Shown here: positions 6,001-15,000 of the stretch, one piece after another | Layout of the letters: each line of letters begins with the position of its first letter | How positions within the stretch are numbered: position 1 is the stretch's first letter | NCBI GenBank assembly: GCA_036867785.1 | Contig: CP145417.1 | Coordinates: 1-64,000, forward strand | DNA length: 64,000 bases | DNA from: Plasmodiophora brassicae | Lineage: Eukaryota | Reading direction: 5' to 3' | Position numbers: made by a program

Positions 6001-9000
6001 GCCATGTCACTAGGCGTCCGCCCTGCGAGCTCCCGGTTGTTATGCTGGGTGGTTCGCACGGCCGAACGTCCCTCGCCGACGCGTTACTCCTAGAGCACAC
6101 TACGACGATCGCCAGGAGGTGCACTGCTGAACGGCCGTGCAATCGCGGGCAGGACGTGGAGCACCGAAGCACGACGGTTCGTCAGTTGAAGGGCAAGGTC
6201 GAGGAAGGCCAAGTGATGCTGGTGCGGCAGGATCCCATCGAAATCGTCCAGGAGCCAGGTCTCGATGGTCAGACCATCAGTATGGCGCGGCGCAAGACAG
6301 CGGTGGTACGTGCCGGCCCGACAACGATGATGGATGGAAACCTGGGCATATCTGATTTCTTCTTTGAGCAGGATGTGGTGCCACAGGCGGTCTTCCAAGT
6401 TGGAGATGCGTATTTCCAGTTGGTCGGCCTTGTCGACCACTGGGGTAATGCCCACGTCGCTGGACACGACGAAGGCCATTACGTGTCCTGGGTGAAGCAG
6501 GCACGTGGTGGCTGGGCGTTCTGCGACACCAGTCGCGTGCAAGGGTATTCCGACGCGCACGTCGCCGACTTGCTCAGCAAGCGGGTCTACCGACTCCTGT
6601 TCTACAGGTGCTTCGCACTGCGAAGGCAATAAAGCTTGTCCATCGTCGAGTTCATCTGCCTGGCCATGCAGTAGAAAGAATGGTGGAACATATGATCCGT
6701 AAAAGACGTTGTATTCGTTTGCGTTGTTGAGAAGTTGTACCTCACGCCTTCTTGCCAGGCCGCACGCTGCAGTACAACTCAGGGATAATGAAGTAGGACC
6801 GCTCTGACACGTACTGAACCGCGTTTGCTTGGAGTCGAGCGCAATCACCTGCCTCACGTGCATGCTGCGACACCCGAAACGCCTGCATCGCTCGTCTGGT
6901 CTGACCTGCCATGCTTGACACGCATGCAGGGACGACGTCGGCGCTGTCGACCGCCGGCCACTTCAGCAAAGGATGCCGTCCGGCGCCGCCTGACGCCAGG
7001 ACGACCTGCAGGGCCGGCGTTCGCGCGTGTCGACCTAATCTGCTTGTAGTGATCTGGGTGAGGCGATACGCCGGCGGCGGGTGGTCGACGGCAGATAGGC
7101 GTGCGCATGTCGATCAACGGCAACGGACACTGGGCGCCACCTGCCTGCTGGAAGACCTGCAGGGCAGGCAGGTGCCGCTCGACAGGCCGACGGGGACATC
7201 GGCGAGAAGACCTTTGGTTGCTCGGTCCGCCATCAACGCATGGTGCACGACAGCGGCGCGCGCGACCGATTGCAACGATCGGCGAACGTCCAGCGCGCCG
7301 CCTCAGCTGAGGAGCATGCCGGCGCGATGCTGGACCAGCCCCGCCAAGACACGATGACAGCTACCCGGCAGGTGCTCATGCTGGACGGACGACGGCAGGC
7401 GACAGCCAGCAGGTGCGTCCTGTCCAGCGTGTTAGAGGGCCTGCACGCCTGTGCATCAGACGACGACACGTACCAGTGCTGCAACTGCAGGGCGTTCACA
7501 CAGACAGATCGGGCACGCCGGCAGGCGTCCAGCAGGACGCGATATGGTCGTCGTGAGTCCATTGGGCCGTGCTGCCCATCTGCGGCGACGTCGCAGCGGG
7601 TGCAGGCACGGCAGACAGGCGCGTCAGGGTGTCGGCGTCCTGCGACGTGCGAGGCTGAACACAACAGCATATCCGGCGGGCGTGGACGACGATGCAGTAG
7701 GCGGCGTTGGCGACCGGCAGCGTCGTCGAGTAGTCAGTCGCGGGCGACGCCCACCATGGAGTCGGCGCCTGCTTCACGTTGAGAGGACTCCACGTCTGTG
7801 CCGTATACCGCCCTCCAACGGGCATGCGCATCGCGACCTCGTGTAGGAGGCGTCGGAGGACGGCGCACGCTCCATGGTGTATAGCGCATCCGCCCAGGCG
7901 ACCGCACGCCGCACCGCCGCACGCCACCGGGGCCGCCAGCAAAAAACAACGCGGCTGTTTTTGGGAGGTCTCAGGAGTTTTTTGCGTAACCAAGACAAGG
8001 GATACACCTGTCATATCATCCTTTACCGTCACCGCCGCCGACCAACTGTCAACAGCCGCGTCTCGAATCGACAGGCAACCGGCACACGTACGGAAAGGTC
8101 AGGAGAAATGCTATCAGGTGCACCTGGTTTCAGAGCAATATGGAATTTCCCGAAGGCGAACAGCACGCAGATGCACAGCAGTTCTCAGCGGACGCCGTCA
8201 CCGCCGCCGACCAACTGTCAACAGCCGCGTCTCGAATCGACAGGCAACCGGCACACGTACTGAAAGGGCGTTGGAAATGCTGTCCGATGCACCTGGTGTC
8301 AGAGCAATATGGAATTTCCCGAAGGCGAACAGCACGCAGATGCACAGCAGTTCTCAGCGGACGCCGTCACCGCCGCCGACCAACTGTCAACAGCCGCGTC
8401 TCGAATCGACAGGCAACCGGCACACGTACTGAAAGGGCGTTGGAAATGCTGTCCGATGCACCTGGTGTCAGAGCAATATGGAATTTCCCGAAGGCGAACA
8501 GCACGCAGATGCACAGCAGTTCTCAGCGGACGCCGTCACCGCCGCCGACCAACTGTCAACAGCCGCGTCTCGAATCGACTGGCAACCGGCACACGTACTG
8601 AAAGGGCGTTGGAAATGCTGTCCGATGCACCTGGTTTCAGAGCAATATGGAATTTCCCGAAGGCGAACAGCACGCAGATGCACAGCAGTTCTCAGCGGAC
8701 GCCGTCACCGCCGCCGACCAACTGTCAACAGCCGCGTCTCGAATCGACAGGCAACCGGCACACGTACTGAAAGGGCGTTGGAAATGCTGTCCGATGCACC
8801 TGGTTTCAGAGCAATATGGAATTTCCCGAAGGCGAACAGCACGCAGATGCACAGCAGTTCTCAGCGGACGCCGTCACCGCCGCCGACCAACTGTCAACAG
8901 CCGCGTCTCGAATCGACTGGCAACCGGCACACGTACTGAAAGGGCGTTGGAAATGCTGTCCGATGCACCTGGTTTCAGAGCAATATGGAATTTCCCGAAG

Positions 9001-12000: not shown

Positions 12001-15000
12001 ATGAAGAACGGGCGGATCGATCACGCGGCACAACTCAGGACGAGGACGGCGAAGGCCAGGTCGACGCTATTCGCGCTGAGCCAATCGGGCTGCTTCAAGA
12101 CGAAACACCTGAACGTGAGCAAGAAACGCGTGGTGTTTATGAGCTTCGTGCGATCGCAGCTGGAGTACGGCCTCTGCATCGCCAACCACAGCAGCTCGAC
12201 GCTGAAGGAGATCGACTCGTGGGTCATGCGAACGTGCGCCGAGTTCCTCGGCGGCCACCGCAACGGGTCGATCCTGATGATGCGCTACGCCGGCATTGTC
12301 CCGATGGCGATCCGGCAGGCACAGCTACGTGGCGGGTTCCTGCTCCACCTGAAGGAGAAGGCCGACGAGTACCCGAGGACCATGAGCGGCAAGATCGCCA
12401 AGGCCATGTTCGCGAACCCGGCATCGAGGCTGTCGACGATCGTGCAGAAGTGCCCGGTCTGGTCGCGGGTGCAGGCGCTGATGCGGCAGCAGGCCCGGGT
12501 GAGGGACCTGCGCGAGTGGAAGATCAGGCACGGCACCCGATTGGAGGAGGCGGACAAGAACGAGGGCGGACCCGGGGACGCGCTGGTCCAGGCGCTGCAG
12601 GAACGGGCGTGGCGGCCGTGGGCGCGTGCGAAACTGATGCGGGTCCAGAAGCAGGAGTGGAACAGACCGCACGCGACCGCGTTCCAAGCGACGGCGGACG
12701 CGTACCGGATCGCCAACTGGCTGACGAATCGCCTACCGGGCATACCTGCTCCATGTCAGAACTGCAACGGGGCGTACGAGACGAATCGATACCATTGTAC
12801 GATTTGTGTCGGCGCCCAGCAGCGGCTGGAGCATGTGTATCGCCCGGAGGTGCATCTGAAGTGGTTGACTGATGCCGACAACGCGATCGACGCCTGCCTG
12901 CTCCAGCTGACACGGCCGTCGATCATCCAAGCGCCGGCGTATGATGGGCGACCTAGGAAGCAAGCGTCAGAGGCGGCGTATCGACTCGACGAGCGAACCA
13001 GACCGGTGGCGACGGCGATCGCGACTGTCCTCAAGGACATCGACGAGCTGTGCAGGCCGCGACAGGGTCGTGATGGCGGCGACGACAATGGCGGCGACAA
13101 TGGCGACGACAATGGCGGCGATGATGGGGACGGCGGCGGCGAAGATGGACCTGTCGAGCTCCGCATCCAGGACGGCAACGGCGACGATGATGGCAGCAAC
13201 GGCAACGGCGACGATGATGGCAGCAACGGCAACGGCGACGATCAGGGCAGCAACGGCAACGGCGGCGACCAGGGCAGCAACGGCAAGCGGTACGAGCGGC
13301 GCCCGCCGATCTGGATCCGGGTACCGTGACGATCGCTCATGCCCGGCCGGATTTTTCCCATCCGATCAGCGTCTGACGCCCGGATGGGTTTTTTCATCCG
13401 GCCGACGAGGCCATCACCAGGCCTATCGCGACATGCTGGCGACGACGACCATCGGCGCCGCCAGCATCGACACGCACCACCCGCACTGCGCAGTCCGTCA
13501 CAGGCGGCCACTGCGTAGCGCTATTTCTATCATGTGACCCTTCATCTACCTACTCAAGACGACACTGGCAATCGTATTATGCTCGGCATCGGTTGGAAAA
13601 GGGTGGTCTACGCCTAATACACACAAGACTAAAACCCTAAGCCACGAATGCCTTTGCTTAGGGGGATATCCGGAGCCTACAAGACGAATGCTGGCTCAGC
13701 GATGCCGTTATCATGGCATGCCTGTCTCTGATCGTCCAGCGTGACGAAACGCGTCGAGTCGCGATGCCTGGGCGTTACCCGACGTGCTTTGCGCTCGACT
13801 CGCAGCTGTACGCGAAGATGATGCAGGGCGGCCAGTACGCCTACGAGAATGTGAGGACGTGGGCCAGATGGTTCGCCCACGAGCCCGTGTTTGACTACGA
13901 CTTTATATTTGTCCCGATCTGCGACGCTTACCATTGGTTCCTGATGGTTGTCCAACCCAAGCTCAAGCTTGTGGAGTGGTACGACTCTCTGCAGCACACA
14001 CCACCCCGCACTGAGTTTGGTCGCAACATCATCCGGTACGTGCGGGATTTGTATCTGGACATGACTGGCCGCCCATGGGAGACGGAATGGACCTGTCGCC
14101 GTGCTGCCGGTCGGTTTCCCAAGCAGAGCAATGGGACCGACTGTGTCGTCTTCGTGATCGTGTATGCTGACTACTTGGCGAACTCGTCGCCCATGACGTT
14201 TTCCGGTACCGATATCAGCTTCTATCGTCGTCGATGGACAGTGGAGATCGCACGAAAGGACATGCTCGATTGCCCGCGTGAAGAACGCAACCTTAACCAC
14301 GGGCCTGCGGAATGCGACCGACGATCGATCGAGTCTCCAGCGTTCGATGATGTCCCCCCGATCCAGTTTGATGACTGCGCTCCGAATTCCAATAGCGCGG
14401 TCAACTCGCACACGACCGGCGGGTCGGGTACGACTTTGACCGCCGTTGGGGACGCTGTGAACGACGAACACGACCGTGATGGTTGGTATCGAGACCGGCA
14501 AATTACGCGATAGTTGACTTTCTTACTTTGAGTTAGGTGGTTCGATGAACGTTGTAGCAGGGGAATCGGCTCTGATGCCCATTGATCTGTCGCTGCCTGA
14601 GCCGACACGTGCGCCGCCGCAACACGCCGATGGACTTGGGCCGCTCCCTTCTGGTGCACCCGTCTACACTGCAGCAGCACCTCAAGAAGTCGCCACCGTT
14701 GCCGTCGATACGGGAGCTGATGATTCGCCTCATGGTTGGTTACGTGTTGGAATAATTGTTTGTATTCCATATTGTGACGCCAAACTAGGTAAGATAACGC
14801 TTGACCCGCACGACCCTAACATGAATTGCGTAACCGCATCGACGTCTTGGCCTCGTGATGTGCCCCCACTGACAGGGTGCCAACCGGAATCGTCGTCTGC
14901 AGTTGCTCTCGTGTCAATCACCGCTGTTCGAACGTCTCCTGATTCGCTTAAGATGCCGGTCCGTCCGCCTCCATCAGAGTCGAGAACATCATCTTCCTCA

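What the first reader, a model, noticed from the sequence alone, without database searches (positions are those of the whole stretch)
7960..13645. Candidate telomere-attaching retroelement with a LINE-type RT and no endonuclease
Seen in sequence: an uninterrupted 816-aa non-LTR RT with no APE at the N-terminus (in-frame stop at 10822) and no PD-(D/E)xK motif after its Cys-His knuckle. Its 5' end points toward the telomere. A tandem array precedes it; a hairpin and then CTAAAACCCTAA in telomere orientation follow it, right where the next gene block starts. Established: terminal retroelements (HeT-A/TART, endonuclease-less Athena-type Penelope-like elements) have this polarity because the chromosome 3' end primes cDNA synthesis. 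Inference: a LINE-derived RT that has lost its endonuclease and uses the G-rich overhang as primer, so 13629-13640 marks a former chromosome end.
Basis: partly seen in the sequence, partly recalled or inferred. Interest (0 to 1): 0.85.

Follow-up and report, generated by a model that had tools for sequence, protein, structure and literature searches.

The report
Truncated LINE copy with telomere-repeat tail
This is a 5'-shortened copy of an ordinary endonuclease-bearing LINE retrotransposon in the clubroot parasite Plasmodiophora brassicae, but its whole family ends in a short stretch of telomere repeats, which ties it to chromosome ends.

Summary
There is an intact 816-aa RT ORF at 10879-13329 with no endonuclease, an in-frame stop at 10822, a 169-bp array upstream, a 3'-UTR hairpin and CTAAAACCCTAA at 13629-13640. 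The window is a Plasmodiophora brassicae chromosome end with (CCCTAAAA)n at 1-336.

The "LINE that lost its endonuclease" reading is not supported. The closest relatives (37-40% identity) carry an N-terminal APE endonuclease, and the window ORF aligns from their residue ~360. A near-identical P. brassicae protein, P0168, is 158 aa longer at the N-terminus and reaches the end of the APE domain. Contigs of other isolates leave the window sequence exactly at 10865 into that longer form. A second, decayed copy at 30648-32260 keeps a whole APE region.

The telomere link is real and family-wide. All five metagenome relatives that include a 3' end finish in 1.5-5 C-strand telomere-like units of 6, 7, 8 or 9 bases, in one register. 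One relative is a head-to-tail tandem. Eighteen distant LINE loci have none.

Best reading: a young, 5'-truncated copy of a telomere-repeat-associated APE LINE family not described in the papers I searched. The mechanism is inferred.

The parts
1..336 (+). Terminal telomere array (CCCTAAAA)n, C-rich strand on +. This is the left chromosome end.
   Evidence: TRF gives period 8 and 41.5 copies; sequence read. TTTTAGGG is the published P. brassicae telomere (passages of PMC6823432 and PMC11191646).
8026..9960 (.). 169-bp tandem array, 11.4 copies. Context only: probably a genome-wide satellite, not the element's 5' UTR.
   Evidence: TRF. Word depth in bin 9800-10006 is roughly 60 to 700 times that of the next bin in three DNA runs. 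The tool warns that this depth is not a copy number.
10696..10864 (+). 5' flank of the LINE copy: a dispersed repeat seen in several genomic contexts. It holds its own hairpin (GGTCACAAAAGTGCGC / GCGCATTTTTTGTGACC).
   Evidence: Loose ends lie before 10696 and behind 10847 and 10871, and summed depth at 10847 is about 10363 against about 900-1300 nearby in X2. Sequence read. No other copy occurs in the window.
10865..13640 (+). The retroelement copy itself: a 5'-truncated LINE comprising RT ORF, 3' UTR and telomeric tail.
   Evidence: Contigs of X2 and X4 start exactly at 10865. Contigs of X13 and X8 run through 10865 into a different upstream sequence. Contigs end at 13641, 13640 and 13637.
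10879..13329 (+). Intact 816-aa ORF. RVT_1 at residues 116-373 (nt 11224-11997), CCHC at residues 626-643 (nt 12754-12807), and an acidic G/D/N-rich repeat tail.
   Evidence: Tandem 12- and 27-bp coding repeats at 13073-13286.
13330..13628 (+). 3' UTR with a stable stem-loop at 13344-13404.
   Evidence: Fold z = -4.59 for the whole UTR and -4.69 for its first 100 nt.
13629..13640 (+). Telomeric tail: 1.5 units of the C-strand repeat, CTAAAACCCTAA.
   Evidence: It is the only interstitial match in the window. The same feature occurs in relatives L001-L005.
13641..20116 (+). Start of gene block B (context). It holds a Ulp1-type C48 peptidase gene spliced to the next ORF (intron 14481-14535) and a 1377-aa ORF.
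   Evidence: Peptidase_C48 E 3.4e-20. A 55-nt GT..AG joint 14480->14536 appears in RNA run X8. A paralogue's contig shares sequence only from about 13643 onward (loose end before 13658).
30648..32260 (+). Second, decayed copy of the same LINE clade, in the same orientation. The whole APE region is present from residue 1, but in frames 3, 1, 2, 3. The RT start is present, then an internal deletion removes RT residues 137-462.
   Evidence: tblastn. Weak Pfam Exo_endo_phos_2 hit, E 8.8e-4, below the cut-off.

Best explanation
Positions 10865-13640 are a young, 5'-truncated copy of an APE-type non-LTR retrotransposon (LINE) of Plasmodiophora brassicae. A full-length family member encodes APE endonuclease (about residues 1-215), a linker, RT, a CCHC knuckle and a variable tail. 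Some relatives also have a small ORF1.

This copy starts about 360 residues into the family ORF. It therefore has no endonuclease, and the first in-frame ATG leaves 816 codons open.

The family has an unusual 3' end. There is no poly(A). Instead it ends in 1.5-5 units of C-strand telomere repeat, always starting in the register (C)CTAA.

Inferred mechanism: the RNA carries or reads into these repeats and pairs with G-strand telomeric DNA. That DNA is either a nick made by the APE in a short telomeric tract or a short, freshly healed end. Reverse transcription is primed there. This puts the sense strand with its 5' end toward the chromosome end and leaves a few telomere units at the 3' junction. 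Here the cDNA was not completed and its end was joined to a dispersed repeat at 10865.

Shown: family membership, truncation, the longer sister copy, the family-wide tail, and transcription of the sister copy. Inferred: the pairing and priming step, and whether the target was a chromosome end.
For: **Identity**
- The ORF is 100% identical over 80% of its length to PBRA_009663 of P. brassicae.

**The family carries an APE**
- In a scan of 1.84 billion representatives, the best non-self hits have 37-40% identity and lengths of 1022-1280 aa. Window residues 3-18 align to their residues 360-381.
- P0011, P0013, P0014, P0016 and P0018 have Exo_endo_phos above the cut-off. P0015 and P0023 have Exo_endo_phos_2.
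- The APE profile matches exonuclease III / APE1 structures, E 1.5e-5.

**A longer sister copy exists**
- P0168 has 956 aa. Its residue 1 aligns to P0011 residue 202.
- Its sequence ...LTRTRRYLMASAQA|MNNG equals the translated loose end before 10865, seen in X2, X4 and X8.

**RNA**
- X8 shows a spliced 55-nt GT..AG intron, so it is RNA.
- It holds a 2855-nt contig covering 10865-13201 plus 518 nt of the alternative upstream sequence, and a contig covering 13213-13637.

**The tail is family-wide**
- The regex CC?TA{2,5}CCCTA{1,5} hits only L001-L005, on the + strand, 121-171 nt after the stop, and window 13629.
- It has 0 hits in L006 (which has no 3' end) and 0 in the 18 distant LINE loci L007-L024. 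Shuffles give 0.23 per set.
- Units are 6 (L004), 7 (L002, L005), 8 (window, L003) and 9 (L001) bases.
- L005 is a head-to-tail tandem with five units between copies.

**Tree**
- The 18 family rows form a clade with SH-aLRT 100. Tail-bearing rows are spread over its 13-row subclade (quick tree).

**Healing at this chromosome end**
- The terminal telomere is joined directly to a truncated coding region at 337-350.
Against: - No target-site duplication was found. This does not fit a textbook APE insertion.
- The 5' junction is not telomeric, and the telomere tract at the 3' junction is only 12 bases. A hit into a normal telomere of about 40 units should leave more.
- No P. brassicae protein with an intact APE of this family was found. 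These searches are word-limited, and repeat masking may hide such genes. P0168's gene model also starts inside the APE domain. A full-length master copy in this species is therefore not shown.
- The hosts of L001-L006 are unknown. "Tail matches the host telomere" is shown only for P. brassicae.
- The 3'-UTR hairpin is not a clear family feature: z is -2.2 for L003, -1.5 for L001, and not significant for L002 and L004.
- Contig ends cannot prove RNA or element ends.
Confidence: 0.62

Rival explanations
1. First reader's model. In P. brassicae this lineage is functionally endonuclease-less. It extends chromosome 3' ends directly: the CCCUAAAA tail anneals to the G-overhang of an eroded or freshly healed end. 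On this reading 13629-13640 is a fossil chromosome end at the left edge of block B.
For: - Both P. brassicae copies seen lack a usable APE. The window copy lacks about 360 residues and the P0168 model about 201.
- No intact APE of this family was found among named P. brassicae proteins.
- There is no target-site duplication.
- Similarity of block B to a paralogue begins at about 13643, just after the tail.
- The same window shows a telomere added directly onto a truncated gene at 337.
- X2 and X4 contigs break at 10865 while X13 and X8 contigs run through. This suggests the copy is polymorphic, hence recent.
Against: - The family as a whole keeps a conserved APE. N7, E35, Y113, D151, N153, D207 and H230 are invariant in 4 of 4 sequences.
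- The two copies end at different 5' points, as dead-on-arrival truncations do.
- The 5' end abuts a dispersed repeat, not telomere repeats.
- Differences seen among isolates number 2 synonymous against 4 non-synonymous, which gives no sign of purifying selection.
- A decayed copy with a whole APE region lies 17 kb away.
Confidence: 0.15
2. The telomere-like tail is only an element-encoded simple-repeat tail, comparable to the short repeat tails of other LINEs. The copy is then an ordinary, randomly placed, 5'-truncated APE-mediated insertion that happens to lie in a subtelomere.
For: - In four contexts (window, L001, L003, L004) and in L002, the tail is followed at once by non-telomeric DNA.
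- Tails are short (12-36 bases), start in a fixed register and vary in number between near-identical copies: four units in L002 and five in L005.
- The family has an apparently intact APE.
Against: - The tail unit is exactly the host telomere unit in P. brassicae. It changes among relatives only in the number of A's (units of 6, 7, 8 and 9 bases), as telomere repeats do.
- L005 shows a precise head-to-tail tandem across the tail.
- Both copies in the window lie within 32 kb of the telomere in one orientation.
- No target-site duplication was found.
Confidence: 0.2
3. The ORF is a domesticated host gene, a co-opted RT kept for a cellular (for example telomeric) function, rather than a transposon copy.
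For: - The ORF is intact in the window copy, in P0168 and in P0001.
- It is present in 20 runs of 11 studies.
- It is transcribed in X8.
Against: - At least two copies exist, with different 5' ends and flanks.
- The differences seen look neutral.
- The closest relatives are full LINEs with APE, ORF1 and tandem copies.
Confidence: 0.03

Closest known systems
TRAS1 / SART1 (telomeric-repeat-specific APE LINEs of Bombyx and other insects)
   Same: Both are APE-type LINEs tied to the host's telomere repeat, with a 3' UTR important for initiation. They are found in subtelomeres alongside active telomerase repeats. Source: passages of PMC4700185 and the catalogue in PMC10088271.
   Different: - As I recall, those elements are embedded in long (TTAGG)n tracts on both sides and end in poly(A). 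I did not read that in a call.
- Here there is no poly(A), only 12-36 bases of repeat at the 3' side, and none at the 5' side of this copy.
- The host is a rhizarian. R1-clade membership was not tested.
MoTeR / FoTeR / Cnl1 (fungal telomere-targeted non-LTR elements, CRE clade)
   Same: The junction pattern is the nearest match. FoTeR 3' ends are followed by 3-7 copies of the C-strand repeat TAACCC, and truncated copies keep the repeats on the untruncated side (PMC12857005, section 19).
   Different: Those elements carry a C-terminal restriction-like (REL) endonuclease and group with CRE/SLACS (section 18). This family has an N-terminal APE and no PD...(D/E)xK motif.
Athena / Coprina (endonuclease-deficient Penelope-like elements)
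   Same: [quoted passage not shown]
   Different: Those have a different RT class, no endonuclease in the family, and hammerhead ribozyme motifs. Here the RT is LINE-type, the family has an APE, and there is no Rfam match.
HeT-A / TART / TAHRE (Drosophila)
   Same: They form head-to-tail arrays with 5' ends outward. The relative L005 shows a head-to-tail tandem.
   Different: As I recall, those elements replace telomerase repeats and attach by poly(A); I saw only the search listing of PMC5537684. Here telomerase-type repeats cap the chromosome, and the copy lies 10.5 kb inside.

Membership tests
APE-type non-LTR retrotransposon (LINE) | LINE-type reverse transcriptase domain | tested here: met
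   RVT_1 E 1.1e-20. The best PDB sequence matches of relative P0011 are R2 and LINE-1 ORF2 proteins. 16527 hits at E<=0.001.
APE-type non-LTR retrotransposon (LINE) | N-terminal APE endonuclease in the family | tested here: met
   Seven of nine relatives scanned have APE Pfam hits; the two without are short proteins. The APE profile matches ExoIII/APE1 structures.
APE-type non-LTR retrotransposon (LINE) | APE endonuclease in this copy | tested here: not met
   There is no APE homology upstream of 10840, and a stop lies at 10822. The copy begins at family residue ~360. This is explained by 5' truncation.
APE-type non-LTR retrotransposon (LINE) | Target-site duplication flanking the insertion | tested here: not met
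   The 60 bases after the tail and the region 9961-10880 share only one 8-mer, and it lies 690 bases from the 5' junction.
TRAS/SART-type telomeric-repeat-specific LINE | Telomeric repeats on both sides of the element | tested here: not met
   There are 12 bases at the 3' side only. The 5' flank is a dispersed repeat.
TRAS/SART-type telomeric-repeat-specific LINE | Poly(A) between 3' UTR and target (feature recalled) | tested here: not met
   The sequence ...ACACAAGA|CTAAAACCCTAA has no A run. The same holds in L001-L005.
TRAS/SART-type telomeric-repeat-specific LINE | RT groups with the R1 clade | not tested
The tree contains unnamed rows only.
TRAS/SART-type telomeric-repeat-specific LINE | APE cuts the telomeric repeat specifically | not testable with these tools
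   This needs a nuclease assay.
Endonuclease-deficient Penelope-like elements (Athena/Coprina) | Penelope/TERT-like RT and no endonuclease in the family | tested here: not met
   Relatives are APE-bearing LINEs.
Endonuclease-deficient Penelope-like elements (Athena/Coprina) | Hammerhead ribozyme motif near the 3' end | tested here: not met
   No Rfam match at gathering score in the window or in L001-L006.
Endonuclease-deficient Penelope-like elements (Athena/Coprina) | Reverse-complement telomeric repeats at the 3' end | tested here: met
MoTeR/FoTeR/Cnl1 (CRE clade) | C-terminal restriction-like endonuclease after the Cys-His motif | tested here: not met
   No PD...(D/E)xK-like motif occurs in the 173 residues after the CCHC. 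The only Pfam domain found in the ORF is RVT_1.
MoTeR/FoTeR/Cnl1 (CRE clade) | A few C-strand telomere repeats directly after the 3' end | tested here: met
   There are 1.5 units here and 1.5-5 in relatives. FoTeR has 3-7.

The most novel reading that the evidence does not exclude
In P. brassicae this LINE lineage survives only as endonuclease-less but transcribed copies that still spread. Their CCCUAAAA tail anneals to G-strand 3' ends at eroded or freshly healed chromosome ends, and the LINE RT extends the end much as telomerase does. On this reading 13629-13640 is a fossil chromosome end, and the element helps rebuild subtelomeres.
Probability: 0.13. Interest if true: 0.85.

Novelty: new member of a known kind. 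Interest (0 to 1): 0.5.

Why it matters
Telomere-associated retrotransposons are known from few lineages: insects, Drosophila, Giardia, Chlorella, some fungi, rotifers and one lizard element. That catalogue comes from passages of PMC10088271. My searches and the P. brassicae genome papers I read in part mention no APE-type family of this kind in Rhizaria. They also mention no family with short telomere-repeat tails whose unit length differs from member to member.

If the tail does direct integration, this family is an independent origin of telomere targeting, using APE machinery and a junction pattern otherwise seen in REL-type fungal elements.

For P. brassicae it would add a mechanism for the highly divergent sub-telomeric regions noted in the pangenome preprint. 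For the scan, the specific claim of an endonuclease-less LINE is mostly explained by ordinary 5' truncation.

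Tried and rejected
- **Whole genome:** none is held, so copies could not be mapped.
- **Metagenome scans:** a scan with the single protein found nothing. The second scan, with alignment A1, gave L001-L024.
- **Word-indexed protein searches**: they gave few hits and no named organism other than P. brassicae. No intact-APE P. 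brassicae protein appeared. This is weak evidence only.
- **Atlas look-up**: only generic RT clusters.
- **3' UTR versus upstream region:** I tested whether 10696-10865 is a copy of the element's own 3' UTR. Only chance-level matches were found, so I rejected the idea.
- **Target-site duplications:** none in the window, L001, L003 or L004. The 5' flanks of the metagenome loci are probably not included in the contigs.
- **Conserved 3'-UTR hairpin across the family:** only the window is clear; L003 is weak.
- **Rfam:** no match.
- **Host identity of L002 and L004 from flanking ORFs:** nothing recognisable on inspection of the ORF lists; no search was run on them.
- **LINE clade (R1, L1/Tx1 and others):** not assigned, for lack of named references.
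- **RNA holders:** no run is on record as RNA. X8 was only guessed to be RNA until the spliced joint was seen.
- **Earlier notes of this scan:** none.
- **Supplements:** closed. The repeat tables of PMC11191646 (Table S3) and of the pangenome preprint may list this LINE.

Full report
**Where the window lies.** The RT ORF is 100% identical, over 80% of its length, to PBRA_009663 of Plasmodiophora brassicae. The window begins with 41.5 units of CCCTAAAA. TTTTAGGG is the published telomere repeat of this species (passages of PMC6823432 and PMC11191646). The window is therefore a left chromosome end. No whole genome was held.

**The observation.**
- An 816-aa ORF at 10879-13329 has RVT_1 at residues 116-373, E 1.1e-20.
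- A CCHC knuckle lies at residues 626-643, with no PD...(D/E)xK motif after it.
- An in-frame stop lies at 10822.
- There is no APE homology in 9961-10840.
- A 169-bp x 11.4 tandem array occupies 8026-9960.
- A 3'-UTR stem-loop at 13344-13404 folds far better than shuffles, z -4.6 to -4.7.
- CTAAAACCCTAA at 13629-13640 is the only telomere-like 12-mer outside the terminal array; 0.04 are expected by chance.

**Why this copy has no endonuclease.**
- *Relatives.* A full HMMER scan of 1.84 billion representatives found a tight group of relatives at 30-40% identity (E 1e-143 to 1e-56) ahead of the bulk of LINE RTs.
  - In the long members, window residues 3-18 align to their residues 360-381.
  - Of nine relatives scanned in Pfam, seven have APE hits at about residues 1-215. 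Five have Exo_endo_phos above the cut-off, and P0015 and P0023 have Exo_endo_phos_2. The other two are short, N-terminally incomplete proteins (alignment).
  - The APE profile matches exonuclease III / APE1 structures.
  - N7, E35, Y113, D151, N153, D207 and H230 are invariant in four of four sequences. By my recollection these correspond to the catalytic residues of LINE-1 EN. The exception is the Asp before the last His, which is Pro or Gly here.
- *A longer copy in the same species.* The 90% cluster of PBRA_009663 holds a second P. brassicae protein, P0168, of 956 aa from a 923,546-bp contig.
  - It matches the window ORF at 793 of 798 aligned residues.
  - It has 158 more residues at the N-terminus.
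  - Those residues align to P0011 from residue 202, that is, the last APE motif plus the linker.
- *Contigs of four public runs laid on 9800-16000.*
  - In X2 and X4, contigs begin exactly at 10865.
  - X2, X4 and X8 show contigs carrying other letters before 10865. Translated in frame, those letters read ...LTRTRRYLMA, which is P0168's sequence.
  - X13 (886 nt upstream) and X8 (518 nt upstream) run straight through 10865.
  - So at least two upstream contexts exist among isolates, and the window copy is the shorter one.
- *A second copy in the window.* At 30648-32260 a decayed copy of the same clade keeps the whole APE region from residue 1. It is split over frames 3, 1, 2, 3 and has an internal RT deletion.

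One caveat remains: P0168's model itself starts inside the APE domain. No intact-APE protein of this family was found for P. brassicae, but those searches are weak.

**The telomere link is real.** A scan of metagenome contigs with the family alignment returned six close loci.
- Every one that includes a 3' end finishes its 3' UTR, 121-171 nt after the stop, with C-strand telomere-like repeats:

| Locus | Tail |
|---|---|
| L003 | CCTAAAACCCTA |
| L001 | CCTAAAAACCCTAAAAACCCT |
| L002 | four CCTAAAC units |
| L005 | five CCTAAAC units |
| L004 | CCTAACCCTAAC |

  These were read.
- A regular expression for the motif hits only these five loci and window 13629, always on the sense strand. It hits none of the 18 distant LINE loci, nor L006, which lacks a 3' end. 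Shuffles give 0.23 per set.
- The tail always starts in the register (C)CTAA, after a loosely similar ...AAG(C)A. Its far side varies.
- L005 is a head-to-tail tandem: its first and last 99 bases are identical. Five units lie between the 3' UTR and the next copy, whose ORF1 start codon follows 20 bases later.
- L002 is the same element (99.4-99.8% identical) with four units and a different flank.
- In a quick IQ-TREE, the 18 family rows form a clade with SH-aLRT 100. The tail-bearing rows are spread over a 13-row subclade.
- The unit equals the host telomere unit in the one case where the host is known.

**Transcription and age.**
- X8 carries a spliced 55-nt GT..AG joint (14480->14536), so it is RNA.
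- It holds the longer copy as a 2855-nt contig, and the 3' UTR up to 13637, inside the tail.
- X8 has no cover at 13733-14146.
- The tool warns that contigs show neither ends nor expression levels.
- Differences listed among isolates are 2 synonymous and 4 non-synonymous. That gives no sign of constraint, though the numbers are very small.

**Surroundings.**
- The 169-bp unit has a word depth about 60-fold (X2, X4) to several hundred-fold (X13) that of the next bin. It is probably a satellite found elsewhere in the genome and not the element's 5' UTR.
- Positions 10696-10864 are a dispersed repeat seen in several contexts.
- No target-site duplication was found.
- Blocks A (337 to about 7900) and B (from 13641) are diverged paralogues at 69-77% DNA identity.
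  - Block A is cut inside a coding region and capped directly by the telomere, so breakage and healing do occur at this end.
  - A paralogue of block B shares sequence only from about 13643 onward. The tail therefore sits at a real block boundary.

**Mechanism.** I favour integration guided by pairing of the C-strand RNA tail with G-strand telomeric DNA in a short tract, primed at an APE nick or at an end.
- For: the tail follows the host repeat, the register is fixed, the relative L005 forms a tandem, and the copy's polarity fits.
- Against: the tract is very short, the 5' junction is not telomeric, and there is no duplication.

**Comparison with known systems.**
- By behaviour the nearest are FoTeR/MoTeR, where 3-7 C-strand repeats follow the 3' end. 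Those elements carry a REL endonuclease (PMC12857005, sections 18-19).
- TRAS/SART are also close: they are APE-type and telomere-repeat-specific (passages of PMC4700185).
- Athena/Coprina share the reverse-complement telomeric repeats but are Penelope-like and have no endonuclease (passages of PMC8557442).
- A 2023 catalogue of telomeric retrotransposons lists no rhizarian element (passages of PMC10088271).
- My searches found no description of this family.

**Verdict.** The window feature is an ordinary 5'-truncated LINE copy. The family it belongs to is a new member of the telomere-associated LINE kind.

Noticed in passing
window 337-830: The terminal telomere array is joined directly to the middle of a coding region. 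That region is homologous to about residue 318 of the ORF at 14545-15966. This looks like a terminal truncation healed by new telomere addition.
   Followed up: partly
window 13713-15966: The Ulp1-type C48 peptidase ORF and the following 473-aa ORF are joined in RNA run X8 by removal of a 55-nt GT..AG intron (14481-14535). They are therefore one gene.
   Followed up: partly
window 337-7900 and 13641-21000: Two diverged paralogous gene blocks (69-77% DNA identity). They hold a large ORF without Pfam match (1377 aa in block B) and a UCH-domain ORF (5679-6632). They may be a subtelomeric gene family or a large mobile unit.
   Followed up: no
window 8026-9960: The 169-bp tandem unit has word depths about 60 to several hundred times those of the neighbouring bin in three DNA runs. 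It is likely a satellite found elsewhere in the genome, and its abundance differs strongly between runs.
   Followed up: partly
window 25697-28936 and 33771-35507: Two long arrays of a repeat of about 126 bp (period read from the offsets of self-matches), 77-82% alike. They flank the GC-rich stretch that holds the decayed second LINE copy.
   Followed up: no
window 10695 -> 14817: DNA contigs of X2 and X4 join letters like those ending at 10695 to 14817, skipping 4121 bases. Only 26 letters lie on the shorter side. This is unexplained; it may be another arrangement of the repeat and a block paralogue.
   Followed up: no
APE domains of L001, L003, L004, L005 and P0168: The residue before the last catalytic His is Pro or Gly (TPHQ, TPHR, SGHQ, PGHQ). 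As I recall, most APE-type endonucleases have Asp there. Whether this affects nicking is unknown.
   Followed up: no
window 53321-53518 and 58460-58657: A 198-bp direct repeat with 100% identity, 5.1 kb apart.
   Followed up: no
L005 1127-1801; L006 62-1018: Relatives carry a small upstream ORF1 without zinc knuckles. The two share a motif around ...RL..L....RPSV.G.... No counterpart was found in the window.
   Followed up: partly
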